Source: an uncultured Planctomycetales bacterium (lineage in GTDB: Bacteria > Omnitrophota > Gorgyraeia > Zapsychrales > Zapsychraceae). From it: a stretch of 64,000 bases of DNA. The stretch lies in NCBI GenBank assembly GCA_964364455.1, contig CAYIMR010000001.1, positions 2,403 through 66,402 on the forward strand, in the 5' to 3' direction. The notes under the pieces were generated by a model. It was not told the DNA's origin. It searched no databases and worked only from the letters and a program-made list of their open reading frames with translations. This document shows, piece after piece, positions 1 to 20,500 of this stretch. The position numbers and the translations under genes were made by a program. Every line of letters starts with the position of its first letter. The stretch's first letter is position 1.

Positions 1-1000
1 GATTGCGGAAATACTCCCTGCCGAATGCGAAACTCGCATTAGTCTCACCACCCATCCACGAATGTTTTTGAGGGGCGGCCGTCAGGCGTGCTTGGTTGAT
101 GATCTTACTGCGCAATTCCTTGATCTCGCTGTCTTCGGAGAGCCCTGGCAGGCCTGCCAGGATTGCCAACACAGCGAGGTAAGCGACGGCGAACCTAGTA
201 TTTCCATCCAATGACCAGCCCGTTCCAGAAATATATTCTGCCTGACGTTGGAATATCACCTGGGCGCGCTCCCGCAGCACTGCAGAAGGGACTCCTTGCA
301 TCGTCAATAAATCAAAAATCGCTGTATCATCTGATTCTAAATTGCCAAAGAACCACTGATTCAGCCGTATCAGCAACCCAGCGTTTTGACGCAGCATCCT
401 CAGTGAAGCGGTGTCACCACGGCCAGCCAGCCAAGTGATAATCTTAATCACATCCTGAGCATTTGGCGTTTCGCTCGCCAAGGTCGTGAGCTGTTCTGTC
501 GCCTCGAGTTCCTGTAACGCTTCGATGGCCAACTCAGATTTCGTCGCATGGCGGCCCAACTGAACCAGTTCAGGAAGCGCGTGGAGTTGTTGTAATGCTC
601 TCAACGCCTTGAAATCATCGAGGCGGTCGGGGGCGTCTGAAGAGAATGGAATGTCGGCTCCTGCCCTCTGAGCCAACTGTTTCACCAAGGCATCGTCGTT
701 TGCAAACTGCGCAAGCACGGATGGAAGGCGTCTAATCTCATAATCTACAATGGTGTCGCCAATCGTACGAAGCGACTTAGGATCTCCCGTGCGAGCTTGA
801 GCGAGTAGGCGTTCCAGGGCCACTTCAGGATCCTTCGTTCCATATTGGCCGTACTCGTAGTACCACGGGTTACGTTTGAACCATTCGAGGAGTTCGTTCT
901 TTGGTTCGGTCGGCTGGACTAAAACGGCTGGGTGAACAACGGGAATAACATCTATCGCTGCCTTGCGAGTTGTGTTCTCGTCTTTAGCTCTGCGTTCTGC
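1..1000 (-). other. Module: alpha-helical HEAT/ARM-like repeat region (C-terminal part of ORF-L, continues beyond the window)
   Basis: Translated stretch reads ...PELVQLGRHATKSELAIEALQELEATEQLTTLASETPNAQDVIKIITWLAGRGDTASLRMLRQNAGLL... The segment at 100-180 (AYLAVLAILAGLPGLSEDSEIKELRSKI) was verified by hand. Confidence 0.3.
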
Positions 1001-10000: not shown

Positions 10001-13000
10001 GTGATGTGTATTGATGAGATATTCATTGCCCGTATGCAAGGATCCATACCGGCGATACGTATTTAACGCGCGCTGATAAAATTGCTGGACCGTTTCCTTG
10101 TAAAGGTTCTCGAATTCCAGTTGAGCGTAATAGCGCTGCCGGTCGGCCTCCGCGTAATTATGCCAGGTATAGTTATCGATACGAACGCGATGCACCTCGC
10201 CTTCTTCCTGGCGGTTATAAATCATGATCGGCCCGCGGGTCGTGGCCAGCCAGGTCCATATCGCCGCCTTGAGCCGGCGCGGCCCGTAATGCTGCCATCT
10301 GTCCATCACGCGGAAGAAGTCATGCGTCTCCAGCGCCCCGACCATTTGCGATCCTTTTGGCAATTCATTCGACAACCACCGGAAATGTCCGTTTAATATC
10401 GTCTGCGTGCTGCCGCCTTCCATAATGACCTTCTGCAGATCCGAATACGTCCCTGTCTCCATCGGCATAACACCGGACTTAAGCAGTTGAATGTCCTTCC
10501 CGTAATTTTCACCCACAAAAATGAAATCGGGATAATCTTTGGTGATGTGGGAAACCAGATACACCAAAAGCGGATTGCCTTCGCCGCCATGCCAATGGTT
10601 AACGACCTTGAATCCACCGTCTTGTTTGCGCTCCCAGGAAGTGACGTGACCGAATAATTTCTGCTTGCCGTTCAATGATCTTTCGGCCGGCAGCATGACA
10701 CCGAAATGATGCGCCACGTCGATGCGTGCCCCTTTAATACCATTTTTGGCCAAGCGCCGGATCAGCGTTTCATAGGCGTATAACACCCGGATATCCCGCC
10801 AGTTGATCACCACCGAATCGTGCCATTCAACCGGAAGCCCGTCCTCGTGGTTAACACTGCCATCGGTCGCCAATCGCCGGATGATCTTACCGAAGGATCT
10901 GGCCTTGACGATCGACCATTCAGGCAGCTGCTTAAAGTTCTGGTTCACGTGGGGGATGAGGTCGACCAAAATTTCTATGCCGTATTTTTCTTTAGCCTTT
11001 TTCACGAGTCTGCTCAATCCTTCTTCACCGCCCAATTCCTTGCTGATATTAAATTCCAGCGGCGAGAATAGCGACGCGTCCGGGCCAACCTGACCGATAA
11101 TGTTTTCCGGCCGATCGAGCTGGTAAACGCCCATCACATAAACGTACGCGAACCCTTGCGCATGGAGATACGGCAGTTTCTCTTCGATCGTCTTGAATGT
11201 CCCGGGAATGGCCCTGCCGTTCTCATCGTGAATAATCTTGCCGTCTTCTCCGTAAACACCCAAATACGCCGGCCAGCCTTGATAGATCATCTTCCCTCTC
11301 AAGTCGGGCTGGGCAAAAATCGTCACATTGGCTTGATCATTTTCAACGTACTGCCAGTCCATGCGCCCGTTATCCTGCAGTTGAACGGCGAGGTGGATAA
11401 CTCCTTTACGCGCCCTGAGAACACGGCTGCCTTCCGAAAAACTTAACCGTATGGAATTGTCCGTCTCCGGCACCACATTCAGCTTCCGGTATCTTTTTTG
11501 CCCGGAATAATTCGTTGCCGTGACCAGCCGCGCGTTGAATGTCTTTAATCTTTTCTTGTTCTTGAAGGGATTAAATCCCGCGTCAATGACCATATCACTG
11601 AACTCGACCGCTTCTCCCAGCTTCGCCATGCGTGTCTCGTGGGCCGCGGGGAATTCTTGCGGCCGGCCGCTATATAAATTGTTCAGGATCTTCTGCGTCA
11701 TCACCTGAATGTGATCGTCCTCAACGCCCAGCGCCGCGTTCAAGATGCGTTTGGCTTCTTCTCCCGCTTTGGGATGATGGACAAGTCCTTCCAGCTGCCG
11801 CACGGCATCGACCATTCTCTGGTGGTCTCCGGAATTTAACTCGTAGACGATCTTGTAAAGGGCGGGATGATTTTGGTAGCGCGCGAGGTCTTCGCGCATA
11901 TCGGAGACTTCCCGGGGATCGGTGATGACATCAACGCGCTGGCCATGCCCGAAGAATGACCGGATGTGGCGCGTATCCGTCAGATAATCCACAAAATGAG
12001 CAGGGGCGATCCTGACGATGGCCTGCTCATCTTTGTTCCATTTGTAATAAAGGTCAATATGCTCATCTTCAAAAAAGACCTCTTTAAATTGTTCGATCCT
12101 TTTACCGACGGCCTTCGGTATGTCCGCCCGCGGCAGGATCTGGCGCAGGATCGTTTGGATACGCGCTCTTCTGTCCACGCCCCGGCGCGCGGTTCTTGCC
12201 TCATAAATTTTCCGTATTAATTTTCGTTCAGCCAACATACGCCAAAACTCGAGGAAAAGCTGTTGCTTGCGGTCCCGTTCCCGCGCGTCCGTGCTCTCAA
12301 TCGGGGAGGAGCTGCGGCTGGAGGCGGAGTCGGCTGAGGTGAGCTCTCGACGGCGAAGTCCTTCCATCTTCGCGGCCTCAAGCAGACTCAACCACGCCGC
12401 CGCGACGACATCGGCGGACCCGCCAAATGCTTCGACGTGGTTTGCTCTATGTTCCGCGGATTTGTATAATTTTTCATCATATCCTTCCCGGGCAATTTTT
12501 TTGGCCTTTTGAACGATCGGTTCTTCGTTATTTTCATTGACCACCGGACTGCTGGAAGAATCATTCTGCCTCTTTAAAATAAGCATGCCCAGCGGCGGAA
12601 GTGTGAGATTCAGCGAATAAGGCCGGCCGTGCGTGGAGACAGGTTGCGCCATAACACCGCCGGAGTTTCCGATGTTGCCACCGCCGTAAATGTCCGCGTC
12701 GCTATTGAGGATTTTCTGCCAATATCCGCCCTGCGGCACGCCGATACGGTAATCCTGCCGGAGCAGGGGTGTGAAGTTCATAACCACCACGACGTTGCCT
12801 TGAGGATTTCGACCCCGGCGTATGAAGCTGATTACACTTTGCTCCCAATCACTAAAATCGATCCACTCAAAACCATGCCCTTCGAAATCCACCTCATGAA
12901 GGGCGGACTCGCGGCGGTAGAGACCGTTGAGATCCCGCACCCATCTCTGCGTCCCTTGATGGCCGGGATAATTCCGAAGATGCCATTCAATTGCTGTATT

Positions 13001-16000
13001 CGCGTCCCACTCTTTCGCCTGCCCGAATTCCCCGCCCATAAACAACAACTTCTTGCCGGGCATGGTAAACTGCAGACCGAAAAGTAATCTCAAGTTGGCA
13101 AAGACCTGCCGCTCGTCGCCAGGCATTCTTTCTTTCAGCGAGCGCTTGCCGTGAACGACTTCATCATGCGAAAGCGGAAGAACAAAATTCTCGGTAGAAG
13201 CGTAGACCAGATAAAATGTCAAAAGATGCTGGTTGAATTTCCGATAAATGGGATCGAGCTTCATATATTCCAGGGTATCGTGCATCCAGCCCATGGACCA
13301 TTTCATCGAAAAGCCGAGACCACCCATATCCGCCGGGCGGGAGACCATCGGCCAGGAAGTCGATTCTTCGGCGATGGTCAAAATGCCCGGATATTGCCCA
13401 TGCGCAGCGATGTTGAAATCTTTCAGAAACGCGACGGCTTCGAGGTTCTCCCTTCCGCCATAAACGTTGGGAATCCATTCGCCGTCTTTACGCGAATAAT
13501 CGCGGTAGAGCATTGATGCCACCGCGTCCACCCGCAGGCCGTCGATATGATACTTCTCAAGCCAGAAGAGAGCGTTGGCGATCAGAAAACTGCGCACCTC
13601 ATGGCGGCTGTAATTAAAGGTGTTTGTGCCCCAGTCCGGATGATCCCGTTCGCGCGCGTCGCTGTAGGAGAAAAGATGCGTGCCGTCAAAATTGTAAAGC
13701 CCGACTTCATCCTTCGGGAAATGCGCCGGCACCCAATCAACAAGGACTCCAATGCCCTGCTGATGCAGATGATCCACCAGATACATGAAATCCTGCGGCG
13801 TGCCGTAACGCGACGTCGGGGCATAGAAATTGCTGACCTGATAACCCCAGGAAGGATAATAAAGATGTTCCGCGACAGGCATAAATTCAACGTGGGTAAA
13901 GTTCATGTCTTTGACATATTGGGCCAGACGCGGCGCGATCTCGCGATAAGTTAACCATCGGTTGTTCTCCCCGCGCAGCCAGGATCCGAGGTGAATTTCA
14001 TAAACGGAAACCGGCGCGTCCAAGGCCTGCTTTCGGGCGCGCTCACCCATCCACTGCGCGTCTTGCCATTCGTAGTCCAGACCCCAGATAATCGAAGCGT
14101 TACTGGCGGGCTGTTCGCTCGTCGGGAACTGATTAAATGAAGCGCAGGGATCAGATTTCATGCGCGTTATACCATCCGCGCCCTTCACGGCGAATTTATA
14201 AACCGTGCCCGCGCCGATATTCGGGACAAAGATAGCCCAGATACCGGCGTCCAGACGCCAGAGGCAATGCGCACCCTGATCCCATTCATTGAAATCACCG
14301 ACCAGAGAAATTGCCTGCGCGTTGGGCGCCCACACGGCAAAATACGTGCCGATCGTCCGGCCGTCGGCCTGAATCAGATGCGCCCCAAGCTTCTCATAAA
14401 TACGGTAATGCGTCCCTTGGCCGACCAAAAGTTGTCTGTCGAAATCACTTAAATGGAGCTTTTGAATCTCTTTTAGAACCGCCGGATAAGACAGTTCTAC
14501 AATCCTGTTCTCGCGCTCCACAGAGGCAAGGAAGTTATTCAATTCCCGTGGATGAACCGCGTAATAAACATACATGATTTCCAACGCCGAAACCGGACTG
14601 GAAGAGGCTTCCGCAATAATCACCCGGCCGTTTTTGCCGAATCTGCTCACTAAGTTTAAATTTTTGCGTGGGGCAGGATCACCGGTAATGAAGACTTCTT
14701 CCCGATCCGTTTGAATCATCCCGGCCACATAGGAATCATGGCGGATATTCCCGGTTTCTAACGGCCGCCCATTAACTTCTATATTCTTAAGAAGAGTCTG
14801 CATGGCCCGGAGTTCATCCATAGAACTAGTGTCATCGGACAATTTTCTCCCGATCTTTTGCGCTATGGAAGCCAACCAATTAAGACCTGTGCTTCCAACA
14901 CCCTTACCCTGCAATTTTGCATCGACAAAATGATTTAGCACCAAAATACTGTTTTTTGAGACGAAGAACTCAAGAACGCCGATGGGCACGGATTTCTCTC
15001 CCATGGAATAATTGTAGGCGTAATATTGCACTCCATCACAAGAGGGCCTCTTTGCGCCGCGGCCTTGGATGGTAATCTTTTTAATCGAAGAATCTCCTTC
15101 AATGTTGTCCAATACCATGCGCGCGGGCAAAATAACCAAGCCCTTCCCGCTTCCTTGTACCGGTGAAGAGGAATACTTCCGTTCTCCCTTGGCCTGGACT
15201 TCGGCGACAACGGCGCGCGCGGGTATGGATCGATCGAGCGGAATGTTGATGAAGATCGACTCTTCCGCCGGTTTGGCATGAACTTCTTTAAATCGCTGGA
15301 CAACGCCTTGTGCGGAGTCACCAGACACACTCCGGGCACCGAACAGACCTCTGGAACCTGACATTGTCAAAATCGATTCTTCACCAGGAATTGTGCCGAT
15401 CGCAGGCGGATCGCGGAAGCTTAACTTGTGGCCGCGTCTGTTTTCAGCGAGGAGATAATTCCCGCCGTACCCAAGATAGCCGGCAATAGCCAGCCGGACA
15501 GCGGATGCGTCATGATGAGCTGGATTATCGATGGCAAGCCAGAGACCATACCATTGACCATTGACCATTGACCATTGACCATAAACTGATACCGGGATCA
15601 CGGCCGGAGTCTGCGGCAACGCCGCCGGTACCGCCGGAACGTTCGTTGTTGTATGGGCGGCTTTGAAGCTGAATTTCTTGGCATTGACCGCCATCTGTCC
15701 GGCCATATCCGCGATTACCTTGAGATCTTTGACGGAAACGATCTTTGTGCCGGCTGTGTTATGAGCGCGGACATATTCCGCCCAGACAAGATCATTGACA
15801 TCAACAACAGGCGAAGAAGAAGAGGCGACCACCGCGCCGACGGGCGAATTCGTTATTTCGTCTTTCGTCTTTCGTCCTTCGTCCGTCATTTCCTGTTCAC
15901 TGTACCCTGTCCCTGCACCAAGGGATACCCTGTCCCCTGCATCCATTGCTTCCTTCAGACTCAAAACAACCAGACCCTTCTTCTTGCGCTTAGGCTGGGT

Positions 16001-16039
16001 CTTCGCCCATTCGTCATAGCGCGGAAACCACAACGCCAT
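1..16039 (-). CDS. Giant multidomain fusion ORF (ORF-L). The C-terminal part continues past window position 1. The start is provisionally the ATG at 16037-16039 (MALWFPRYDEWAKTQ...), but the true start could lie as far up as about 16200.
   Basis: Hand translation of the reverse strand gives continuous protein-like sequence with the recognisable domains listed below. No stops were met in the followed frame, but continuity between anchors was not exhaustively checked. Plus-strand ORFs over this span in the track (e.g. 12629..13087, 13547..13954) look like antisense artefacts. Confidence 0.45.
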   Translation of the reverse strand, partial: MALWFPRYDEWAKTQPKRKKKGLVVLSLKEAMDAGDRVSLGAGTGYSEQEMTDEGRKTKDEITNSPVGAVVASSSSPVVDVNDLVWAEYVRAHNTAGTKIVSVKDLKVIADMAGQMAVNAKKFSFKAAHTTTNVPAVPAALPQTPAVIPVSVYGQWSMVNGQWYGLWLAIDNPAHHDASAVRLAIAGYLGYGGNYLLAENRRGHKLSFRDPPAIGTIPGEESILTMSGSRGLFGARSVSGDSAQGVVQRFKEVHAKPAEESIFINIPLDRSIPARAVVAEVQAKGERKYSSSPVQGSGKGLVILPARMVLDNIEGDSSIKKITIQGRGAKRPSCDGVQYYAYNYSMGEKSVPIGVLEFFVSKNSILVLNHFVDAKLQGKGVGSTGLNWLASIAQKIGRKLSDDTSSMDELRAMQTLLKNIEVNGRPLETGNIRHDSYVAGMIQTDREEVFITGDPAPRKNLNLVSRFGKNGRVIIAEASSSPVSALEIMYVYYAVHPRELNNFLASVERENRIVELSYPAVLKEIQKLHLSDFDRQLLVGQGTHYRIYEKLGAHLIQADGRTIGTYFAVWAPNAQAISLVGDFNEWDQGAHCLWRLDAGIWAIFVPNIGAGTVYKFAVKGADGITRMKSDPCASFNQFPTSEQPASNASIIWGLDYEWQDAQWMGERARKQALDAPVSVYEIHLGSWLRGENNRWLTYREIAPRLAQYVKDMNFTHVEFMPVAEHLYYPSWGYQVSNFYAPTSRYGTPQDFMYLVDHLHQQGIGVLVDWVPAHFPKDEVGLYNFDGTHLFSYSDARERDHPDWGTNTFNYSRHEVRSFLIANALFWLEKYHIDGLRVDAVASMLYRDYSRKDGEWIPNVYGGRENLEAVAFLKDFNIAAHGQYPGILTIAEESTSWPMVSRPADMGGLGFSMKWSMGWMHDTLEYMKLDPIYRKFNQHLLTFYLVYASTENFVLPLSHDEVVHGKRSLKERMPGDERQVFANLRLLFGLQFTMPGKKLLFMGGEFGQAKEWDANTAIEWHLRNYPGHQGTQRWVRDLNGLYRRESALHEVDFEGHGFEWIDFSDWEQSVISFIRRGRNPQGNVVVVMNFTPLLRQDYRIGVPQGGYWQKILNSDADIYGGGNIGNSGGVMAQPVSTHGRPYSLNLTLPPLGMLILKRQNDSSSSPVVNENNEEPIVQKAKKIAREGYDEKLYKSAEHRANHVEAFGGSADVVAAAWLSLLEAAKMEGLRRRELTSADSASSRSSSPIESTDARERDRKQQLFLEFWRMLAERKLIRKIYEARTARRGVDRRARIQTILRQILPRADIPKAVGKRIEQFKEVFFEDEHIDLYYKWNKDEQAIVRIAPAHFVDYLTDTRHIRSFFGHGQRVDVITDPREVSDMREDLARYQNHPALYKIVYELNSGDHQRMVDAVRQLEGLVHHPKAGEEAKRILNAALGVEDDHIQVMTQKILNNLYSGRPQEFPAAHETRMAKLGEAVEFSDMVIDAGFNPFKNKKRLKTFNARLVTATNYSGQKRYRKLNVVPETDNSIRLSFSEGSRVLRARKGVIHLAVQLQDNGRMDWQYVENDQANVTIFAQPDLRGKMIYQGWPAYLGVYGEDGKIIHDENGRAIPGTFKTIEEKLPYLHAQGFAYVYVMGVYQLDRPENIIGQVGPDASLFSPLEFNISKELGGEEGLSRLVKKAKEKYGIEILVDLIPHVNQNFKQLPEWSIVKARSFGKIIRRLATDGSVNHEDGLPVEWHDSVVINWRDIRVLYAYETLIRRLAKNGIKGARIDVAHHFGVMLPAERSLNGKQKLFGHVTSWERKQDGGFKVVNHWHGGEGNPLLVYLVSHITKDYPDFIFVGENYGKDIQLLKSGVMPMETGTYSDLQKVIMEGGSTQTILNGHFRWLSNELPKGSQMVGALETHDFFRVMDRWQHYGPRRLKAAIWTWLATTRGPIMIYNRQEEGEVHRVRIDNYTWHNYAEADRQRYYAQLEFENLYKETVQQFYQRALNTYRRYGSLHTGNEYLINTHHDRIFAIARFNKKEKLIFVINEWWETAFAGIDLAPLQKQLEIESSSKQFYMVTDLENGREEVFTGKELLAEGIRLTLGSYQPAVLAVRKVRGLKDDLSDGVGSLTTNARGRALRDALKRYSEQYRPRRIKVNNAFRWLEKAVLHRSYAFFHERFSYLARIVESRATRGQLNTTDLTVIMHDMAVKHPKEADKMKRMLESLTKRTEDELVREAAQKVRRWMDVGAAVFVSPEAVPYFKAGGMANVVGELAMVLAKSGLKVYVVLPQYQNLDKSTVQYTGKVAQIFLGRHGHVAGSIAEKYFEDVDYVFLDNPYFADALYGQSSKEHESLRAAFLSLGALEAMKALNIHPSIIIGNDWMTAPLMAHLNSDRSLYKRDPHFSQARTIGWIHNNGQDYQFKVGRYQNGVDLLGNLGLAPEDYGWFIDPHRSDLINFMHAFIRHAGIIVPVSPGQLRDYVQTDDKGGAEGFRHVFIEKKQARRLFSVTNGIPLRERQRGRFGMTMFDVHTPEDLQKFLKIQRKKQIESRIIMAEEYPQFWPASGGRSEYINENYFVGNLVSRITDQKGIQYVVPFVRRVMYSGRYPDVSFVFAGVGDPLLMGQLNALIYEFPGRVGYNNDFVSNQKPLYYHVYGIGDFYNSFSMWEPGGISPMEALAFGVPGLVSDKQGHKSTIRSIYVPELARITRINDNEPDFNGARFPVDEYRVDRTVDYIMFAFDRLYAAWKARNENDQWDTLRAHALMSDNSWEKTSESVEALFKYTMGRQEYFRILAKTLMLDDASSPAGDKLSSSSPVVNENNEEPIVQKAKKIAREGYDEKLYKSAEHRANHVEAFGGSADVVAAAWLSLLEAAKMEGLRRRGIAEFQGTALWDLLNGLKELRNLEYNPPRLKNINTFFGDLWKRAAVVKGSEVVRNQMGMIITTAANAKVLLLACADKIEALSSASGERRERILYEILEVYIPLAERSGRRDMADFLRDKWFYYTNYEEYTQLAEALKKRTGLNREQSEEYLALELRNLIIYLKSSIPADKFYVTGRFKGPASIRNKMTRKGVALDDINDLFGFRLVILSEDKMLMGEVIGLIDQFVRMPGRHWMGAKPRNRIKGDHYEGVHIDYWDDSTRPFEIQIMTSANFDLYQYSTEAGGAHWIYNVSKEPTLSKQRFRNIPELKLSGNFAKDFEALQKLEKQWIYVTVNVNEGEFVPLRLPLNSISADIAAHRYIDLFNDQYAGVEAFVAVEREEGFEVTQKKWLSATEPVSNGLTVRVVSGKAVKSIDRHIISKVKTNRARLIIGMLGLGKREHAQVMEGIISCTDQFLGPMALDLGLKNARELLMAVELGIIAKDQIKERAIKIGGQMLKKRLTRLDFSLPDTRIMLERLLGTFPSFRLKSVEDLYALVGTKQIDAEVINERFSAGNLKVRLEGAVSDGRARLIVTGRYDWPGIFLDVAKIISEFGANLGDFDSDETKEVNIVLEVEGVTPEKINNIMEALGTIPDIKVPEPAFTRKMAQFIYSNRVPVSIERIPHKTGVLVNMLRALWDRDTRINVLSIKTRVEGKFATVALTLKHPEGISAEELKRIKEDLERAKYAMNGPSSSSPVSSSSPVNHLSEKLAGALAGMGVEEKRKLNDDAANNVNKMLMRIHYIHSLETYRQDFLDPLARKLDLADWNALYLAVALDLLSVQDIHREALIQGEEIVAQALSLENSQQLAKSDNFARLETLLLTFEKEHLKDVDSLIAAAGSKQITPEQIKARLPSDKRKIFVRTTKEFYDGEISLQIWARHDRPGMLRAVSREVKNLGGNIRFFTVYVDKEIPAELRANMKGFVKVVVDLTIRGIDAARALAIAQTLRTLPDADVTSVSKTWWLPKLLWTKIYREEFMVEIPDKVGQLSWLLDTIGRLDPQINVAKIFSGTSSNGKARITLVLESLHKIKRQDVALAFARASFMDEATGPVSLKLAEGTVERFVQEKLRGLPGYLFFGPDDFTGTGSLMPGLDREIFEIFYKIAQYHHSGQIRQGGAPYIAHPLGVLAMYVNRWAGRDLLVALGLPLHDAVEDSIRYFTNARNDKLPPEERRAQFTDKNKRPVSDEERREVLELIKTQIIDGLAAIGKDIHGLPFDLDRLMELVWVLTKKKDAADYLFEIVKFGPGAIIGKFVDRVSNLEDFEASITSEFIGKQFEGTIKDFIEAPIGDTGKSLLDNLPDEFQYFKLKFKRSLLISFLYSLHRLSGIDSMEKARETVRRIDPGIVIEGWNHPEEVFLQAVRALAERERQAAPDTASPPTSLGASSPILSPESHREQTQAGARKTDICSGSIRSVEDLRSYLMQGPFAVDATMEAFLDEIKDPRAQQALASGGLGFLAGETYGAYGQTGQRVVGLMPLYEHYVDHAGGGTYIGIDWDHTAGVGRLSVAEHKKEAFRFDVEFNGSMYNVRLYMVLTHGTPVLMIRQPEINYALYPEEPGKLRQMAFLGRTYVELFKQLGVAPDILRLNEPQLFFLVQAVENDIQYFENGYFRLRKEASIYRDTKVVLTTHTPEAAALPKYDSVSWLRMHVGEGLAPDYVIRDGSLDLARRLAENPRVAVINAVAQEHGEVTRLAVLPGAGEKTLAITNGSDPRLWKSGELMDLEGSGKGVRGIDLYEIGQHAKGKLNEYLLKTTGTAFRHIERPLAGLVRRLVEYKEQRILFGLIEYITGDRDKEYETPLGRKYGLEMNLLVGGVGRDTVGREWVRQFKALAKREDLEGKFIFVEGSGTEAMKLATQASDVWVSMPRSTREAAGTSDQRASFNGHPNIATDTGGPKEYVETGVNGWLMDVFKDSGYSFEEVVTLLQLPDHYREKQQIVEYYRKRSQELLAQYLTEVSQLYYAHQEHQDARWLAIMEASYRIGHEKVSIIRLVKQYGQMYEFVRGNLNISFEELAQRFKEIRLHEVEKHLRASSPVVGSAWLAAQLKSIKKVFERAKALNKAVDGVMVLLTTAMVIFVGLAGYALYHVFGWLTVLFVPVLAEIVIIIWLEVKAERRAKDENTTRKAAIDVIPVVHPAVLVQPTEPKNELLEWFKRNPWYYEYGQYGTKDPEVALERLLAQARTGDPKSLRTIGDTIVDYEIRRLPSVLAQFANDDALVKQLAQRAGADIPFSSDAPDRLDDFKALRALQQLHALPELVQLGRHATKSELAIEALQELEATEQLTTLASETPNAQDVIKIITWLAGRGDTASLRMLRQNAGLLIRLNQWFFGNLESDDTAIFDLLTMQGVPSAVLRERAQVIFQRQAEYISGTGWSLDGNTRFAVAYLAVLAILAGLPGLSEDSEIKELRSKIINQARLTAAPQKHSWMGGETNASFAFGREYFRN
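1000..1200 (-). other. Module: two predicted transmembrane helices
   Basis: Translation reads VDGVMVLLTTAMVIFVGLAGYALYHVFGWLTVLFVPVLAEIVIIIWLEVKAERR. Confidence 0.4.
1500..3100 (-). other. Module: GT35-family alpha-glucan (glycogen/maltodextrin) phosphorylase-like
   Basis: Motifs ASGGLGFLAGETYG (verified at 2941-3000), VVLTTHTPEAAALPKYD (verified at 2401-2460), and a C-terminal ...SMPRSTREAAGTSDQRASFNGHPNIATDTGGPKEYVETGVNGWLM (EASGTSGMK-like, Lys not conserved). Confidence 0.55.
3200..4100 (-). other. Module: HD-superfamily (RelA/SpoT-type) hydrolase domain
   Basis: HHSGQIRQGGAPYIAHPLGVLAMYV...LHDAVEDS verified against plus-strand 3901-4020. A downstream ...KFVDRVSNLED matches the ADRLHNMRT-like motif. 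Confidence 0.6.
4100..5230 (-). other. Module: two ACT-like regulatory domains
   Basis: ISLQIWARHDRPGMLRAVSREVKNLGGNIRFFTV and MVEIPDKVGQLSWLLDTIGRLDPQINVAKIF.... Confidence 0.4.
5250..7440 (-). other. Module: RelA/SpoT-homologue (RSH) block containing a (p)ppGpp-synthetase-like domain, a TGS-like domain and an ACT domain, preceded by an HD-like helical segment
   Basis: Synthetase motif EIQIMTSANFDLYQYSTEAGGAHWIYN verified at about 6560-6680, and GRFKGPASIRNKMTRKG upstream. TGS-like at about 6370-6470. ACT GRARLIVTGRYDWPGIFLDVAKIISEFGANL at about 5300-5560. KVLLLACADKIEAL...ILYEILEVYIPLAERSG at about 7300-7420. Confidence 0.55.
7438..7655. repeat. Exact 216-bp direct repeat, copy A. It lies inside ORF-L coding sequence and encodes ...RRRLGEMKAAELLSLWAAAVVDASGGFAEVHNARHEASKYLKEDYGERAIKKAKQVIPEENNENVVPSSSS on the minus strand (given C- to N-terminus, i.e. 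in plus-strand coordinate order).
   Basis: Base-for-base identical to 12344-12561 by direct comparison. The flanks diverge immediately on both sides. Confidence 0.85.
7700..9600 (-). other. Module: GT5/GT4 glycogen(starch)-synthase-like glycosyltransferase
   Basis: AAVFVSPEAVPYFKAGGMANVVGELAMVLAKSGLKVYVVLP and ...SMWEPGGISPMEALAFGVPGLVSDKQG, matching the KTGGLADV and SxFEPCGLxQ motif positions. Confidence 0.45.
9700..12290 (-). other. Module: GH13 alpha-amylase-family catalytic domain with an N-terminal extension (GlgE/amylosucrase-like)
   Basis: Region I ILVDLIPHVNQN verified at 10931-10965. Region II GARIDVAHHFG verified at 10693-10731. Region III FIFVGENYG. Region IV GALETHDFF. Confidence 0.55.
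12344..12561. repeat. Exact 216-bp direct repeat, copy B
   Basis: Identical to 7438-7655. The upstream context differs (ELTSADSASSRSSSPI...). Confidence 0.85.
12600..14580 (-). other. glgB: Module: 1,4-alpha-glucan branching enzyme (GlgB, GH13_9)-like
   Basis: YEKLGAHL, VWAPNAQAISLVGDFNEWD, VYEIHLGSW, LRVDAVASMLY, HDEVVHGK. ...PGILTIAEESTSWPMVSRP verified at 13321-13380. Confidence 0.6.
14620..15160 (-). other. Module: GNAT-type N-acetyltransferase-like
   Basis: VDAKLQGKGVGSTGLNWLASIAQKIGRK matches GNAT motif A. The module is flanked by SSSPVQ (verified at about 15165-15185) and SSSPVS (about 14590). Confidence 0.4.
15553..15585. repeat. Tandem repeat (CCATTGAC)x4 inside coding sequence. 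It encodes a Gly-Gln-Trp repeat (YGQWSMVNGQWYGLW).
   Basis: Directly visible: ccattgaccattgaccattgaccattgacca. Confidence 0.8.
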
Positions 16040-16287
16040 CTGGAATTCCTTATCGGACAACTTGATCTTGACGGAATTCAACGCGGCGGACGCGCGGCCG
16101 CTGAAGTAAGCCCAAGCATCAACTAGGCTCAATTGAATCTTACCGTCGAAGCCGGGCACCAGAACGATTTCGGCAATCTTGACAATCCTGAAAGGCGCGA
16201 CTATACTTGGGATGAATATGAAAGGATTCTTTACTAATCGCAGGCGTGAACTGGTCGGCAAAAGTTTTGTGACTACCGAGGAATAAA

Positions 16288-16380
16288 ATGTTTTTAGCAG
16301 GCCTATTAGCGGTAGCCGCCATAGCCGTGGTAATTGCCGTGTGGTTTGGAATCGATCAATACCGCGCCCATCACCACTAA
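16288..16380 (+). CDS. Small hydrophobic peptide 1 (30 aa): MFLAGLLAVAAIAVVIAVWFGIDQYRAHHH
   Basis: ATG 16288 is preceded by GAGGA 7 nt upstream. One predicted TM helix followed by DQYR and a His3 tail. Paralogous to the next two peptides. Confidence 0.5.
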   Translation: MFLAGLLAVAAIAVVIAVWFGIDQYRAHHH

Positions 16381-16437
16381 TCATTGCCCCTAAAGGCGCC
16401 GCCCCACCCGGTATTCTCGGTTGCCCGGAAAGGAGTG

Positions 16438-16539
16438 ATGAATAAAATGTTATTCGTACTGGTAACGTTCTTGATGATCGGCCTGGCTTTCTTGATCTGG
16501 ATTGCCATCGACCAATACCGCCTGAAACATCATCATTGA
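16438..16539 (+). CDS. Small hydrophobic peptide 2 (33 aa): MNKMLFVLVTFLMIGLAFLIWIAIDQYRLKHHH
   Basis: AAAGGAG Shine-Dalgarno 3-9 nt upstream of the ATG. Same TM helix plus IDQYR plus HHH pattern. Confidence 0.5.
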   Translation: MNKMLFVLVTFLMIGLAFLIWIAIDQYRLKHHH

Positions 16540-16741
16540 CCGGGTCTGCTTCGTCCCTCGCCCCTCGTCCCTCGTCCTTCATGGCCTCAAAATTCGGCGC
16601 GTTGGTCTTTCGGGCCAGATCTTCCTGAATGCCGCCCTGCGCCAAGACGCCCAAAGAAGCCGTTCGGATTGAGCCGAAGGTTAAGTTGACGAGAGACCGC
16701 GGATATGTTATAGCTACACTGTTAAATCGGGAGGTGGGATA

Positions 16742-16843
16742 ATGGGAATATATATTTTGCTCGGCGGGTTTCTTATCTTCGCGCTTATTATCGCCGAGAT
16801 CGTGATCCGTCAGGACAGGGGCCGCCATCATCACGGAGCTTGA
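16742..16843 (+). CDS. Small hydrophobic peptide 3 (33 aa): MGIYILLGGFLIFALIIAEIVIRQDRGRHHHGA
   Basis: GGGAGG upstream of the ATG. Third paralogue, with a more diverged tail (RQDRGRHHH). Confidence 0.45.
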   Translation: MGIYILLGGFLIFALIIAEIVIRQDRGRHHHGA

Positions 16844-16967
16844 TCCGCGCGATCCTTCTCCGATCGAGGCCTTCTGCGGCTTAAATATAATTCCGCCTTG
16901 ACCATATCTCTCAGACATGTTAGGATTTGACGATAATTTAGAGTAATCTTTAAAAGGAACAGAAAAG

Positions 16968-17207
16968 ATGAAACGATTAAAAGTCTTTAATAATGACCAA
17001 TGGCTGACTAAGCACTTTAAAGAATTAGTAGATAAATACGCTGGTGGATTCATTATCGCGGTTAACGGCAAGATCGTATATACCAACAAAGACGGCTCAC
17101 CGCGCGATTTAGGGAAACGCGTCAAAAGAGAATTCCCTGATGCTACGCCCTTGTTTTTCCGAGTCCCATATCCCCATGAATTTATATGCGCTCTAATCAT
17201 TCTATAA
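16968..17207 (+). CDS. DUF5678-like small protein
   Basis: In the ORF track: MKRLKVFNNDQWLTKHFKELVDKYAGGFIIAVNGKIVYTNKDGSPRDLGKRVKREF.... AAGGAACAG sits upstream of the ATG. From memory this family is typically paired with a retropepsin-like protease. Confidence 0.6.
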   Translation: MKRLKVFNNDQWLTKHFKELVDKYAGGFIIAVNGKIVYTNKDGSPRDLGKRVKREFPDATPLFFRVPYPHEFICALIIL

Positions 17208-17587
17208 AATTCCCCTACAAAACCTACAATAACATACCCTGTCCGATCATCACTCTTGATATCCGCAAAACGGCCATTGACGCCTATATCGATTCCGGAG
17301 CTTTCTACTCTATTTTCTCCATCAAGGAGGCTGAATGGCTCGGCATAGACTACACCAAAGGCAGGCAAGGCGGCGCTATGGTAGGGGACGGAAATATAAT
17401 TCCAGTATATTTTCATATCCTCCCTATAAGTATCGGCGGGATTTCCCTCAACGCCACGATAGGATTTTCCCCCAAACTTAATATCGGCTTCAACCTTTTG
17501 GGCAGAAAAGACATCTTCAACCGTTTTGTCATTATCTTCGATGACGCCAAAAGAAGTGTCACGTTGATTCCCCGCAAACACCAATAA
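17186..17587 (+). CDS. Retropepsin-like (retroviral-type) aspartic protease
   Basis: In the ORF track: ...IITLDIRKTAIDAYIDSGAFYSIF... carries the D-S-G-A catalytic motif. The ORF overlaps the DUF5678 ORF by 22 nt in a different frame, suggesting translational coupling. Confidence 0.65.
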   Translation: MRSNHSIKFPYKTYNNIPCPIITLDIRKTAIDAYIDSGAFYSIFSIKEAEWLGIDYTKGRQGGAMVGDGNIIPVYFHILPISIGGISLNATIGFSPKLNIGFNLLGRKDIFNRFVIIFDDAKRSVTLIPRKHQ

Positions 17588-17599
17588 TTCTTCAGCGCC

Positions 17600-20500
17600 G
17601 GCGAAACCTGCATTATTTCCATTCGGCGCGTTGGTCAGACGCTCCAAAGCTTCTTTATTACCAATTTGCGCCAAGACACCCAATTGCTTGGCCGCGACAT
17701 AAACGATCCCCGCCGCCGCGACGAATGTTCCGGCAACCGCGTACGCTCCAACGCCGATGGCCGCCGTCGCAACAGCCGCAACACCCAGGCCGAGCAGGGT
17801 TTCAATCGTACCGAAGCCGGATTGCCGGGGGTCAATAACTGGGCTGGAACTCTTGCCGAAATTGTTGCTCTTAGCAGAATTTTCCCTTTTTTGTTTCAGG
17901 GTTTTTAAGGTTTCTTCATCCATGCCCATCTCAAACGACGGGTCATCCACAGGGGGGGAGGTTTTCTTTTCTGTGCCGATAAGGCCCAGGACTCTTTGCA
18001 GGTTGTTTTTCCAATTTTCAACCGCCCCATCCACAACATCCTGAGAAACATTTTTTATCGTAAAGAAATCATCAATGTCCGCCATCTGCCCTAGGATATC
18101 TAAATTGCCGATCGACCCATGCTGACCTTGCAAAATACCGGCCTTGAGGATAGCGTCCAAATTCCGGAGGTAATTGCCTCGCAACAACGAGGCGTACGCA
18201 TCCGGCGGCATACCCAATTCAGCGACGACGCCCCTTAGGATTTCCGGCCGCCCTTTATCATACGCGTCGAAGAACAGCGACAAACGGCGGTAATCCCCGA
18301 CCGGCAGGCGCATGACCACCCCGTATCGGTCAAACAGCGGCAAAACGCCGATCGTGTGCCGCGTTAACCGCCCGCCGCGTGAAAGCACCCGGCGTTCCCT
18401 TTCCATCATCCGCGAGATGCCTTGCGGGGTTTCCAACCCGACAGGTGTCCCGGATTGAAGCTGATGTTCCCAATCAAGGAATATCCCCGGTTTGCCGACG
18501 TGTTCTTTAAAAACAGTCGGCTCAAAGGTATCATTGAGATTATGCTTCGCGTAGCCTGGCGTCCCGGCGCCTTTAAACTCCAGGCCAAAGGCTTTGTGTT
18601 CTTTAGTCCCTGAGCCTTTGAGTTCTTCCCCTCTCGTGACAATAGCCCCTTCCTTATTGACACGGATCACCGCCGGCACCGGCAATAAAATCGACCGCCC
18701 GGCGATGCCCAGCATCGGCATCGTAAATGGCCGTTGTTGGGCGTCCACAACCCTCTTGAGCCCGAATCTTTTATACATCTCCTCGTCATTTAAGGCTCGT
18801 ATATACCGGGCCTGATGTAATAACGGCGCGCCTTTTTCGATTTCATAAGCCGGGCCAGCCAAAAACACAAACGATCCATTTTCATTATCAAGGACCCCGC
18901 TGAACTCCTCCGGCAACTGAACACCGGCGGGAATATTCCACCTTGACCCTTTTTTAACATAAACGTCGGCATCCAGATGCAAGAACGGCCTGCCGTGTTT
19001 GTAATATTTCCGCCCTCCTGTTTCTGGATCTGTAAATATGCCGGCCGCCTGATTTGTCAGGGCCTCATCCCGATACCGCCCTGCCACCTTTTGAAGGCAC
19101 GACAACTTTTCAAGATCAAACACCGGGCTGGAGGACTTAGACTTTCGGGCAACAACGTAATAATCAGAGTCATTGAAAAGCTCTACGCTGTATCGCGCGA
19201 ATAATGGATGCATCATCCGGTGGATCCGTTCTTCTGTCTGGAAGAATGTCCTAAACCACCCTCGTTCGGCAAAATGCTTAACAACCGCCGGTGCCAACAG
19301 CCCCTTCCTCCATAACCCCTGCAGAATCAAGAAAGCGGAAACCTTGTAAACGCCCCTCACATAACCGTTCGTCCTTGTGTAATGGCTCCAGGCTTTCTCC
19401 CTGGCCAGGAAGTTGCCGATAAACGTGCCGCCCGGCGCCAGCCTCCCTGCCATCATGCCCACCGCTTTGTCTAAATCAGAAAGGTGGAATAACGTGTCAA
19501 GCGAAACAACAACATCCACACCGCTGATAAGCTGAAGGACCCTGGAATCATAAATATCCATATTTAAGACAGTCACCTTGCCGGCATTGGGGCCTTGGAT
19601 CCTCTGGCGCAACCGCACCAATGCCTCGGCGTTGACATCCACCGCGTATATCGCTTTCACATTTTCTAACGCCGCCACCTTTTTGGTGAGCCCGCCGGCG
19701 CCGGATCCAAAATCAGCGACAACCAGCTTATCCCCGGCTTTTCTCACCTCTTCCACGGTTCTGTCTTCAAGTTTTGTGTGCATGCTAAAAATACTCTTTT
19801 CCGGCGTCACATCAAAAACACGATGTCCTTTACGCTCAATCCAATGAAGAATAGTATGCTTCGGCAAATCCTTAACCGGACTGCTGGTTACAGACACCTC
19901 TTTGATTAATTGAGCAAGTTTCTCCTTAACTTGAGAATCAGAAGCTGCCGGCGGATGAATATGGTCTATTTCCTCTTGGAGCAGGATAGTATACCCTGAC
20001 ATCTCGTTAACACCATAACCGCCTAGCATCTCATCGGGTTTCCTCTTGGACCTCGGGAATAAATGCGCACGCACCTGTCCATTCCCGATATCGACCCATT
20101 TGATATCGATCATGTTTTCCGTAATTCCACCGGAGAGCAATTGTTTAATCTTCTTGCTGGCATTATAGATAACCTCTCCCATCATGCCGCTGTAGACAAA
20201 ATTCACCGCAGGCCAATTAGGTACCTGCTGGCCGGCCTCAGAAACTAAGTCGACAACCTCCCTTTTATCAATGGGGAAGCGCCCTAAGAACCCTTGGAAA
20301 TGGGCATGATGTTTAATAGAACGCCCGGGGCCGTTCCAGTAAATGGTAGCATGAGGCATCACCACGGCAAGAAGCGCGCCAAGGCCCATAACCTTATTTA
20401 ATGATGGCTGAATGCCGTGTTTCCGATAGGCGATTACAAAACTCGGCGTTTTCCTTGCCTCATCTGTCCCCCAGAAAAATGGATTGATATACATTGCCCA

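What the first reader, a model, noticed from the sequence alone, without database searches (positions are those of the whole stretch)
16288..16843. Three tandem paralogous 30-33 aa membrane peptides with His-His-His tails
Each has a good RBS, one hydrophobic helix, then (I)DQYR and a terminal HHH (HHHGA in the third). They sit in the only plus-strand island, between the two giant ORFs and next to the protease pair. Candidate roles are small membrane regulators or chaperones of the giant membrane proteins, metal-binding peptides, or type I toxin-like peptides.
Basis: seen in the sequence. Interest (0 to 1): 0.65.

Follow-up and report, generated by a model that had tools for sequence, protein, structure and literature searches.

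The report
Small membrane-peptide genes nested inside giant gene
The three 30-33 residue membrane peptides are real, conserved genes, but they do not lie between two giant genes: they sit, with toxin-antitoxin-like cassettes, on the opposite strand inside one uninterrupted giant Omnitrophota reading frame that is kept free of stop codons across them.

Summary
The three small + strand ORFs exist as described: pep1 16288-16380, pep2 16447-16539 (alternative start 16438) and pep3 16742-16843. Homologues occur in three related Omnitrophota contigs. More distant relatives occur in four metagenome contigs.

Between genomes, substitutions are mostly synonymous in the peptide frame and non-synonymous in the opposite frame. 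The peptides are therefore the selected coding sequences.

In intact copies, each peptide follows a ~70-aa two-helix membrane protein. The two genes are translationally coupled, sit behind a near-consensus promoter, and lie among toxin-antitoxin-like pairs. In the window that partner has decayed to a 22-codon remnant, leaving three orphan peptides. The HHH tail becomes a looser basic, His-rich tail in distant copies.

The context claim is wrong. One minus-strand frame has no stop codon over the whole 64 kb (21,333 codons) and runs straight through the island. Holding the + proteins fixed, 15.7 ± 3.3 stops would be expected there; 0 are observed. The same open frame crosses the homologous islands in L033, L052 and L054.

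No known family matches. The function is inferred as selfish or immunity-type membrane cargo, and this is weakly supported. I found no prior description of the nested arrangement.

The parts
16179..16207 (+). Sigma-70-like promoter TTGACA-17-TATACT upstream of the small-ORF operon
   Evidence: It matches 11 of 12 consensus positions. The same sequence is present in L033 at about 141-170. Analogous TTGACA-17 elements precede the module in L053, L054 and L055 (read by eye).
16218..16286 (+). 22-codon remnant (MKGFFTNRRRELVGKSFVTTEE) of the ~67-aa two-helix membrane partner gene. Its stop lies 1 nt before the pep1 ATG.
   Evidence: L033 has the full-length version, MKGFFTNPRRELIGKSFV...PKEGEK (67 aa), directly upstream of the pep1 homologue. 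The first 18 codons align between the two. L039 carries the same truncated form.
16288..16380 (+). pep1, a 30-aa single-pass membrane peptide ending DQYRAHHH
   Evidence: The L033 orthologue is at 386-481 and the L039 orthologue at 9708-9800. Window against L033 gives 8 synonymous and 3 non-synonymous codon changes in this frame, against 1 and 8 in the giant frame.
16447..16539 (+). pep2, a 30-aa peptide (33 aa if started at 16438) ending DQYRLKHHH
   Evidence: An identical peptide is in L039 at 9867-9959. Paralogues of the pep2' type are in L033 (830-919) and L039 (11245, 12720). L033 against L039b gives 10 synonymous and 3 non-synonymous changes in the + frame, against 1 and 12 in the giant frame.
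16592..16654 (.). D1 repeat, copy b. It reads LGVLAQGGIQEDLARKTNAPN in the giant frame and separates the pep1/pep2 block from the pep3/protease block.
   Evidence: See (D1: 75% identity to copy a, spacing 1029 nt, which is in frame). Further copies are in L033 and L039 at cassette borders. It occurs nowhere else in the 64-kb window.
16742..16843 (+). pep3, a 33-aa peptide ending RQDRGRHHHGA. It is the most divergent paralogue.
   Evidence: It is identical in L039 (called there as the 66-aa P0008). Only a 3' remnant (DRARHHHRA*) is present in L033. No divergent full-length orthologue was available, so coding selection is untested for this one.
16898..16926 (+). Weaker promoter-like site upstream of the DUF5678 gene
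   Evidence: 9 of 12 positions with a TG extension. This is a consensus match only.
16968..17207 (+). DUF5678-like gene (79 aa)
   Evidence: Pfam PF18929 with E 0.004, below the gathering score. It is conserved next to the protease in L033 and L039.
17186..17587 (+). Retropepsin-like aspartic protease (133 aa, DSGA motif)
   Evidence: Pfam Asp_protease_2 at 24.5 bits against a cut-off of 24.3. Against L033 it shows 65 of 128 identical residues, with nucleotide differences by + codon position of 47, 41 and 85. Codon changes are 36 synonymous and 63 non-synonymous in the + frame, against 6 and 93 in the giant frame.
17621..17683 (.). D1 repeat, copy a. It lies directly after the hydrophobic helix of the giant protein and reads LGVLAQIGNKEALERLTNAPN.
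17690..17797 (-). Hydrophobic transmembrane-like stretch of the giant protein (LLGLGVAAVATAAIGVGAYAVAGTFVAAAGIVYVAA), just upstream of the island in the giant gene's reading direction
   Evidence: Translation.
2..64000 (-). A single stop-free reading frame of 21,333 codons that runs off both ends of the window. It is a giant multi-enzyme ORF and contains the whole island in antisense.
   Evidence: See (0 stops, against 16-68 per 2 kb in the other minus frames). Pfam domains in this frame include starch synthase/GT1, GlgB, RelA/SpoT, methyltransferases, radical SAM, SLT and M23. The nearest homologues are Omnitrophota proteins.

Best explanation
**What is shown**

The three ORFs are real genes for about 30-residue single-pass membrane peptides. 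Each has a hydrophobic helix, a Trp at its end, and a short basic, His-rich tail. By the positive-inside rule the tail should be cytoplasmic.

They belong to a small, lineage-restricted and so far unnamed family. Its intact form is a two-gene operon:
- a sigma-70-like promoter;
- a ~70-aa two-helix membrane protein;
- the peptide, starting 1-8 nt after the partner's stop codon.

These modules sit in variable arrays together with toxin-antitoxin-like pairs:
- DUF5678/retropepsin in the window, L033 and L039;
- DUF433 and DUF2283 genes in L033;
- DUF4258/DUF2283 in L039;
- DUF433/DUF5615 in L052;
- HicA/HicB in L053.

In this lineage the arrays are bounded by a ~63-nt repeat.

In the window the partner of pep1 has been cut down to 22 codons, and pep2 and pep3 have no partner. 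What remains is three orphan peptide genes.

The whole array lies antisense inside a giant Omnitrophota multi-enzyme ORF. The giant frame is not conserved at the amino-acid level across the island, but it is kept free of stop codons. Translation of the giant gene presumably reads through about 490 codons of 'junk linker' there.

**What is inferred (about 0.35 on its own)**

The module is selfish or addiction-type, or immunity-type, membrane cargo. The peptide is the harmless or protective partner, because only peptides survive as orphans. The two-helix protein is the potentially harmful partner.

The peptides are not dedicated factors of the giant protein.
For: **Real genes**
- The ORFs, ribosome-binding sites and hydropathy are as described.
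- Homologues are present in L033, a different Omnitrophota genome, in L039, and in L001, which is near-identical.
- pep1, window against L033: 8 synonymous and 3 non-synonymous changes in the + frame, against 1 and 8 in the giant frame.
- pep2' type, L033 against L039b: 10 and 3, against 1 and 12. Nucleotide differences by + codon position are 3, 1 and 12.
- The + stop codon is preserved, TAA in the window and TGA in L033.
- The promoter is conserved.

**Two-gene module**
- Both modules in L033 are translationally coupled.
- Homologues of the 2-TM partner at 55-66% identity are each followed by a 27-36 aa peptide: L052 (runs off the contig end), L053, L054 and L055. These peptides read MFA(L/M)(I/V)TAL...LWI..E(Q/R)(Y/R)(R/W)L(K/H)(H/K)H.
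- Toxin-antitoxin-like neighbours are seen.

**Decay pattern**
- The truncated partner and peptide remnants are seen.

**Nested in the giant ORF**
- The window has 0 stops in 21,333 codons.
- Island null model, keeping the + proteins and their codon usage: 15.7 ± 3.3 stops expected, minimum 3 in 5000 trials, 0 observed. The other minus frames hold 36 and 33.
- L033 has 0 stops over 2666 codons, and over its first 3300 nt 0 against 63 and 57 in the other minus frames.
- L052 has 543 codons open.
- L054 has 0 stops against 58 and 44, at 39% GC.
- The codon-usage score of the giant frame is the lowest of the whole window at 16181-16600.
Against: - There are no expression data of any kind.
- pep3 has no divergent orthologue, so selection on it is untested.
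- The window copies are orphans and might be on the way to decay.
- The functional assignment (immunity or addiction partner) rests only on gene neighbourhood and on which partner survives. No search gave a hit: Pfam, NCBIfam, PADLOC and PHROGs were all negative.
- In L053 and L055 the antisense frame is open only piecewise, so nesting in a continuous giant ORF is not universal or not resolved there.
- The minus frame of L039 is broken several times. This is probably due to homopolymer errors, but that is not proven.
- L001, 99.3% identical to the window, has the upstream part of the giant ORF split into separate genes. The continuity of the giant ORF therefore varies between assemblies.
- The family is tiny in protein databases: 21 clusters for the partner. 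This could mean rarity rather than masking by gene callers.
Confidence: 0.6

Rival explanations
1. The peptides are type I toxin-like. They are membrane-damaging, and their mRNAs are held in check by a fully complementary antisense RNA, which here is the giant gene's own transcript.
For: - The architecture resembles known type I toxins (from my own knowledge of PepA1, Ldr and Fst): 30 aa, one helix, a Trp, then a basic tail.
- The genes are multi-copy and tandem, and sit in toxin-antitoxin-rich arrays.
- The overlap with a presumably transcribed gene on the other strand is complete.
Against: - In intact modules the peptide is translationally coupled to a protein partner, which is not the usual type I layout.
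- Orphan peptides persist without that partner. This is hard to tolerate for a toxin unless the antisense RNA suffices.
- No known type I family matches.
- No structured leader or small RNA was detected.
Confidence: 0.15
2. The window copies are decaying, non-functional leftovers of a cassette. The family was functional elsewhere, but here it is no longer expressed or needed.
For: - The partner gene is truncated to 22 codons.
- pep2 and pep3 lack partners.
- L033 shows 3' remnants of pep2 and pep3.
Against: - All three window ORFs are intact with ribosome-binding sites. The promoter is identical to that of L033.
- pep1 of the window (an orphan) against L033 (with an intact partner) still shows 8 synonymous to 3 conservative changes.
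- The same three orphans are retained unchanged in L039, although the flanking DNA there is only 87% identical.
Confidence: 0.13
3. The peptides are dedicated accessory subunits, regulators or insertion helpers of the giant membrane protein.
For: - They are physically embedded in the giant gene, next to one of its hydrophobic helices.
- The module is found inside stop-free antisense frames in several contigs.
Against: - Number, order and presence vary between close relatives.
- They travel with unrelated toxin-antitoxin-like pairs and carry their own promoter.
- In L053 and L055 the context is not a continuous giant frame.
- The giant-frame sequence opposite them is unconstrained.
Confidence: 0.07
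4. The peptides are membrane-anchored metal-binding peptides that use the His3 tail.
For: The terminal HHH is conserved in the Omnitrophota copies: pep1, pep2, pep3, and the L033 copies.
Against: - Distant homologues end KHHPK, HKHAH, KHKH... or KHQQRRHTRKV.
- L039 paralogues end RHHQ and KHH.
- No metal-transport or metal-sensing gene is nearby.
Confidence: 0.04
5. The ORFs are spurious: chance antisense ORFs, shadows of the giant gene.
For: Many long + strand ORFs in the window are such shadows and have no Pfam hits.
Against: - The substitution pattern is coding-like in the + frame and anti-coding in the giant frame.
- Start, stop, ribosome-binding site and promoter are conserved.
- The giant frame has its worst codon-usage score here.
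Confidence: 0.02

Closest known systems
Type I toxin-antitoxin toxins (Hok, Ldr, TisB, Fst, PepA1/SprA1 and others)
   Same: - Peptides of 25-50 aa with one hydrophobic helix and a short charged C-terminal tail.
- Often multi-copy or tandem, and found in toxin-antitoxin-rich or mobile regions.
- Overlapped by an antisense transcript.
   Different: - There is no sequence match to any catalogued family.
- The intact unit has a protein partner encoded upstream and translationally coupled.
- No dedicated small RNA is seen; the only antisense RNA would be a giant mRNA.
- Toxicity is untested.
Embedded antisense overlapping genes in bacteria (for example the E. coli cases discussed in bioRxiv 10.1101/2020.11.18.388249 and PMC7457138)
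   Same: Short protein-coding ORFs lie completely inside a longer gene on the opposite strand.
   Different: Roles are reversed here.
- The embedded genes include members of established families (retropepsin-like protease and DUF5678 here; DUF433, DUF2283 and HicAB in related loci) and carry the amino-acid-level constraint.
- The long 'mother' frame shows no amino-acid conservation and is only kept free of stops.
Omnitrophota giant 'multi-enzyme metabolic cluster' ORFs (West-Roberts et al. 2023, bioRxiv 10.1101/2023.11.21.568195; Nielsen & Lui 2026, bioRxiv 10.64898/2026.06.07.730766)
   Same: - The host frame fits this class: more than 21,000 codons.
- It contains PF08323, PF00534, methyltransferase, radical SAM and HD/RelA domains, hydrophobic helices, and SLT/M23 domains.
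   Different: A text search of both papers for antisense, opposite strand, nested, small protein/small ORF and stop codon found no mention of opposite-strand genes inside the giants, or of unconstrained read-through linkers.
Chromosomal integron cassette arrays and tandem integration at a repeated attachment site
   Same: - Variable arrays of very small cassettes, many toxin-antitoxin-like.
- They share one orientation, are separated by a repeated ~60-nt element, and differ between close strains.
   Different: - No integrase was found in what I scanned.
- The repeat lacks the attC core sites in the right order and has no convincing hairpin (z from -0.3 to -2.6).
- At least some cassettes have their own promoter.
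- The repeat is conserved as a peptide in the giant frame.
Small membrane protein modulators (KdpF, CydX, AcrZ, MgtS/MgtR, MgrB)
   Same: Size and single-pass topology.
   Different: - There is no sequence match.
- There is no linked transporter, oxidase or sensor operon.
- The location is a mobile cassette, and copy number is variable.

Membership tests
Type I toxin peptides | Small (<60 aa) hydrophobic peptide with one transmembrane helix | tested here: met
   19-residue Kyte-Doolittle means are 2.6-2.8, followed by polar tails.
Type I toxin peptides | Sequence membership in a described toxin family (Pfam or NCBIfam models) | tested here: not met
   No hit at E <= 1 for pep1 or pep2. pep3 gave only sub-threshold noise.
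Type I toxin peptides | Antisense RNA antitoxin that pairs with the toxin mRNA | not testable with these tools
   The opposite strand is a giant ORF, so an antisense transcript is plausible. No RNA data are available, and Rfam found nothing.
Type I toxin peptides | Toxicity on over-expression | not testable with these tools
   This needs an experiment.
Integron gene-cassette array | Adjacent IntI tyrosine recombinase | tested here: not met
   No integrase domain appeared in the giant frame from 2 to 58000 or in the long + ORFs. The giant frame from 58001 to 64000 was not scanned.
Integron gene-cassette array | attC sites with RYYYAAC ... GTTRRRY cores and an imperfect hairpin | tested here: not met
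   The D1 repeat has GTTGG at its 5' end and CCAAG at its 3' end, which is the wrong order. Fold z-scores are -0.3 to -2.6, and the terminal pairing is not kept in L033 copy 1108.
Omnitrophota giant multi-enzyme ORF (host frame) | Uninterrupted ORF of at least 10,000 codons | tested here: met
   21,333 codons without a stop, running off both window ends.
Omnitrophota giant multi-enzyme ORF (host frame) | Many distinct enzyme Pfams tiled in one frame (PF08323, PF00534, methyltransferases, radical SAM, HD) | tested here: met
   compared with the class description read.
Omnitrophota giant multi-enzyme ORF (host frame) | Omnitrophota origin | tested here: met
   The best named homologues are Candidatus Omnitrophota. 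The homologous island L033 is from a Candidatus Omnitrophota genome.
New two-gene membrane module (2-TM ~70 aa protein + ~30 aa peptide) | The peptide lies immediately downstream of the FWT.KRLEALS...LGG.FGKI 2-TM protein | tested here: inconclusive
   This is met in L033 (twice), L039, L052, L053, L054 and L055. In the window only a 22-codon remnant of a paralogous partner precedes pep1, and pep2 and pep3 have none.
Known small membrane modulators (KdpF, CydX, AcrZ, MgtS) | Sequence match, or linkage to the target operon | tested here: not met
   No Pfam or NCBIfam match. The neighbours are toxin-antitoxin-like genes and the giant ORF.

The most novel reading that the evidence does not exclude
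Omnitrophota giant genes harbour arrays of small selfish cassettes (toxin-antitoxin-like pairs and the 2-TM protein plus peptide module) on their antisense strand. Either the cassettes are adapted to carry a stop-free antisense frame, or stops are purged after insertion. As a result the ribosome reads a giant ORF straight through hundreds of codons whose only constraint is 'no stop'.

This would mean that continuity of translation itself is under selection in these giants, not just the protein product. It would also mean that standard gene calling hides a whole layer of nested genes.
Probability: 0.45. Interest if true: 0.85.

Novelty: new variant of a known kind. Interest (0 to 1): 0.7.

Why it matters
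**A new small-protein family.** This defines a new, evolutionarily constrained small membrane-protein family and its two-gene module. Gene callers almost never report these genes, because a giant ORF on the other strand masks them. Only 21 clusters of the partner protein exist among 1.84 billion representatives.

**A handle on whether giant ORFs are translated end to end.** The more important point is that the island bears directly on an open question: whether the enormous Omnitrophota ORFs are really translated from end to end. In the island the amino-acid sequence of the giant frame is free to drift, yet stop codons are excluded. This holds in at least four independent contigs. Selection therefore seems to act on uninterrupted reading rather than on the sequence read.

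**It is testable.** One can look for peptides or ribosome footprints from the 'junk linker', and for transcripts of the + strand.

**Implication for annotation.** Six-frame annotation of giant genes may uncover many nested mobile cassettes.

Tried and rejected
**Searches that led nowhere**
- Exact look-up of the window protease and DUF5678 proteins. The protease is not on record, and DUF5678 is only on the L039 contig.
- A back-translated search for the protease in GTDB genomes found no relative.
- Degenerate DNA pattern for the peptide C-terminus:
  - GTDB genomes: 36 hits, of which one is real (L033).
  - JGI metagenomes: 12 hits. Only three also fit a stricter C-terminal pattern, and on translation those three are unrelated.
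  - Viral contigs: none.
With the three peptides concatenated it found only P0008, which is pep3 of L039.
- Pfam, NCBIfam, PADLOC and PHROGs on the peptides and on the 2-TM partner gave nothing significant.
- Rfam on the island found nothing.

**Ideas considered and rejected**
- The D1 repeat as a structured element or attC site: no convincing fold and wrong core order.
- Terminator scan: the number found equals the shuffled expectation.
- The giant stop-free frame as an artefact peculiar to the window. I raised this because L001 differs from the window almost only by small indels and stop-removing changes at its gene borders. I rejected it for the island, because L001's own 1598-aa gene P0001 crosses the island, and because independent public contigs L033, L052 and L054 show the same open frame.
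- The long + ORFs at 37.8-50 kb, and ORFs in other stretches of low coding score, as further nested genes: no Pfam hits.
- L002, the locus of a distant homologue of the flanking giant segment, is an ordinary gene neighbourhood without the island.
Full report
**1. The observation**

- pep1, 16288-16380: MFLAGLLAVAAIAVVIAVWFGIDQYRAHHH.
- pep2, 16447-16539: MLFVLVTFLMIGLAFLIWIAIDQYRLKHHH. An in-frame ATG at 16438 would add MNK.
- pep3, 16742-16843: MGIYILLGGFLIFALIIAEIVIRQDRGRHHHGA.

Each is preceded by a Shine-Dalgarno-like purine run. Each has one strongly hydrophobic 19-residue stretch (Kyte-Doolittle mean 2.6-2.8), followed by a polar tail that ends in His residues.

pep1 and pep2 share their start context (AATAAAATGTT) and a 24-nt stretch over W..IDQYR at 83% identity (D7 and D12). 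pep3 is more distant.

**2.

A six-frame scan shows that one minus-strand frame has no stop codon from position 2 to 64000. That is 21,333 codons, and the frame runs off both ends. The other minus frames hold 16-68 stops per 2 kb.

Pfam places many enzyme domains in this single frame:
- starch-synthase/GT1, GlgB (CBM48 and alpha-amylase), UDPGP;
- RelA/SpoT-HD-ACT;
- several methyltransferases, radical SAM, GFO_IDH;
- SLT, M23 and GH2.

The nearest named homologues are from Candidatus Omnitrophota. This matches the 'multi-enzyme metabolic cluster' class of giant Omnitrophota proteins described by Nielsen & Lui 2026, following West-Roberts et al. 2023.

The frame passes straight through the island. 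The peptides are therefore nested antisense inside one giant ORF, not placed between two.

**3. The + strand genes next door are genuine**
- 17186-17587 passes the Pfam Asp_protease_2 threshold and has the DSGA motif.
- 16968-17207 is DUF5678-like.
- A near-consensus promoter, TTGACA-17-TATACT, lies at 16179-16207.

**4. Related sequences**
- **L001** (ENA, 99.3% identical to window 29032-15324). It carries the island, and its 1598-aa called gene P0001 also reads through it.
- **L033** (Candidatus Omnitrophota genome, found with a degenerate DNA pattern for the peptide C-terminus). It holds a homologous but differently composed island:
  - the same promoter;
  - a full-length 67-aa two-helix protein (MKGFF...), followed 1 nt later by a pep1 orthologue, MFLAGLLAVATIAVVIGVWFGIDQYRVRHHH;
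  - a 69-aa two-helix protein, followed by MFALITALVILIIVSSWIAIEQYRIKHHH;
  - 3' remnants of pep3 and pep2;
  - DUF433-like and DUF2283-like genes;
  - the DUF5678/protease pair.
- **L039** (ENA, mosaic, 87-99% identical). It has pep1, pep2, pep3 and the protease pair. It also has two further pep2'-type copies, one intact 69-aa partner, two other small membrane ORFs, and DUF4258/DUF2283.
- **More distant modules.** A search with the 69-aa partner found five homologues at 55-66% identity. I examined four of their contigs, and in each the partner is followed by a 27-36-aa peptide of the same design:
  - L052: next to DUF433/DUF5615. MFGLILALAILMALSIWIGVDRLKHKH..., running off the contig end.
  - L053: next to HicB/HicA. 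MFALVTALAIAAVVVLWIVGERYRLKHHPK.
  - L054: MFALITALAIALVVLVWIALEQRRLHKHAH.
  - L055: MFAMITALILMVGVVLWIVLEQRWLKHQQRRHTRKV.

From this, the conserved unit is promoter, then a ~70-aa 2-TM protein, then the peptide. The strict HHH end is a feature of the Omnitrophota copies only.

**5. Which frame is under selection?**

Codon-by-codon comparison, shown as synonymous/non-synonymous changes:

| Comparison | + frame | Giant frame |
|---|---|---|
| pep1, window vs L033 | 8 / 3 | 1 / 8 |
| pep2' type, L033 vs L039b | 10 / 3 | 1 / 12 |
| Protease, window vs L033 | 36 / 63 | 6 / 93 |
| 69-aa partner, L033 vs L039 | 17 / 6 | 12 / 11 |

- For pep2' type, nucleotide differences by + codon position are 3, 1 and 12.
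- For the protease they are 47, 41 and 85.
- The pep1 stop codon is kept as a stop, TAA in the window and TGA in L033.

The + strand genes are therefore the constrained coding sequences. The giant frame changes radically across them. Its codon-usage score is the lowest of the whole window at 16181-16600.

**6. The giant frame is nevertheless kept open**
- Within 16150-17620 it has 0 stops. The other two minus frames have 36 and 33.
- In 5000 randomisations I kept every + protein and its codon usage and shuffled the intergenic bases. These gave 15.7 ± 3.3 stops, and never fewer than 3.
- L033 is stop-free in one minus frame over all 8000 nt. Over its first 3300 nt the count is 0 against 63 and 57.
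- L052 is open over all 543 codons.
- L054, at 39% GC, is open over 627 codons against 58 and 44 stops in the other frames.
- In L053 and L055 each cassette is covered by an open antisense frame, but the frames are not joined.
- L039 shows repeated frame hand-offs. At least two of these coincide with single-base homopolymer differences from the window. I read them as probable assembly errors.

I infer that ribosomes on the giant mRNA must be able to read through the island, so stops are selected against even though the sequence read is unconstrained.

**7. Anatomy of the array**

A 63-nt repeat (D1) sits at 16592-16654 and 17621-17683. The two copies are 1029 nt apart, which is in frame. It occurs nowhere else in the window.

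D1 recurs at cassette borders in L033 and L039. In the giant frame it reads LGVLAQ.G...L.RLTNAPN, and it follows a hydrophobic helix of the giant protein. Copies inside the islands look like echoes of that site left by successive insertions or recombination.

D1 has no convincing fold, and it lacks integron attC cores in the proper order. No Rfam family matches in the island.

**8. What the peptides do (inferred)**

No family in Pfam, NCBIfam, PADLOC or PHROGs matches the peptides or their partner.

The evidence on function is contextual:
- the module has its own promoter;
- it is translationally coupled;
- it is small and variable in copy number;
- it always sits among toxin-antitoxin-like pairs.

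Only the peptide is ever found as an orphan: three in the window, and several in L039. The 2-TM gene is the one seen truncated.

That pattern is what one expects if the peptide is the harmless or protective partner and the 2-TM protein the costly one. I hold this at about 0.35.

The type I-toxin reading fits the architecture, but it fits the orphan copies and the coupled protein partner less well. The metal-binding reading is weakened by the variable tails. A dedicated role for the giant protein is weakened by the variable content of the array.

**9. Novelty**

Giant Omnitrophota ORFs are known. A term search of the two main papers found no mention of antisense or nested genes, and a wider literature search found no such description for Omnitrophota.

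Embedded antisense genes are debated in E. coli. There, however, the long gene is the constrained one. Here the relation is inverted.

**10. Caveats**
- There are no expression data.
- pep3 lacks a divergent orthologue.
- Protein databases under-report these genes because giant ORFs mask them. The partner family has only 21 clusters among 1.84 billion representatives.
- L001's split version of the giant ORF upstream of the island is unexplained.

Noticed in passing
window 2-64000, minus strand: The whole window is one stop-free frame of 21,333 codons. It tiles ordinary metabolic and cell-wall enzyme domains (starch synthase, GlgB, RelA/SpoT, methyltransferases, radical SAM, SLT, M23, GH2), and the ORF runs off both ends.
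   Followed up: yes
window 27819-27749, 27173-27164, 25321-25131, 23671-23526, 20651-20247, 15379-15378 (compared with L001): The ENA contig L001 is 99.3% identical, but there the same DNA is called as six separate genes in different frames. Nearly all indels, many of them in homopolymers, and two stop-to-sense differences (TAA/TTA at 20247, TGA/GAA at 15379) cluster at those gene borders. Either the giant ORF is split in that strain or assembly, or it is fused in this one. The direction of change is unresolved.
   Followed up: partly
window, 27 sites in the giant frame, for example 63046, 60229, 53869, 27415, 23560, 19132, 17848, 15817, 12553, 7645, 5245: The motif (S)SSPV occurs 27 times in the giant protein, where about 0.3 would be expected. 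It often lies at module borders, for example 14 residues before the Met that starts a separate gene in L001. It could be a linker or a processing signature. The related motifs ASPLA and SSPV also occur in L052 and L054.
   Followed up: partly
window 12553 and 7645; L039 5756-5970: The same 30-residue stretch (SSSSPVVNENNEEPIVQKAKKIAREGYDEKLY) occurs twice in the giant protein. L039 joins window ~7652 directly to ~12346, so it lacks the ~4.7 kb between the two copies. Modules of the giant gene appear to be gained or lost by recombination between repeated linkers.
   Followed up: partly
window 16592-16654 and 17621-17683; L033 508, 1108, 1978; L039 10016, 12399, 13504: A ~63-nt repeat bounds the cassettes. 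It is conserved as the peptide LGVLAQ.G...L.RLTNAPN in the giant frame. It is not attC-like and has no clear fold.
   Followed up: yes
window 53100-56100; also 27800-29500, 30800-31300, 20300-20900, 33500-34200: These are further stretches where the giant frame has a codon-usage score near or below zero but still no stops. A 94-aa minus-strand ORF in another frame (54417-54701) looks protein-like, but it has no Pfam hit. These may be more unconstrained linkers or unrecognised nested genes.
   Followed up: partly
window 37800-52000: This block has higher G+C (0.55-0.58 against about 0.45 next to it) and strongly negative AT skew. The codon-aligned + frame is almost stop-free too, giving + ORFs of 250-450 codons. 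None of the eight long + ORFs tested here has a Pfam hit, so they are antisense shadows. In the giant frame, the stretch from about 37800 to 40400 also lacks Pfam hits.
   Followed up: partly
L039 11016-11108 and 11105-11215: There are two more small membrane ORFs in the island of the related contig. One has an acidic tail (…PPDDDEEEEK) and one a His/Lys tail (…SHRHKHS). An AF2212-like antitoxin fragment is also present (MIKIIPAIYEKG…).
   Followed up: no
L053 376-876 and 977-1594: In a contig without a continuous giant frame, the HicB/HicA pair and the 2-TM protein plus peptide module are each still exactly covered by an open antisense frame of 167 and 206 codons. This hints that the cassettes themselves carry the stop-free property.
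   Followed up: no
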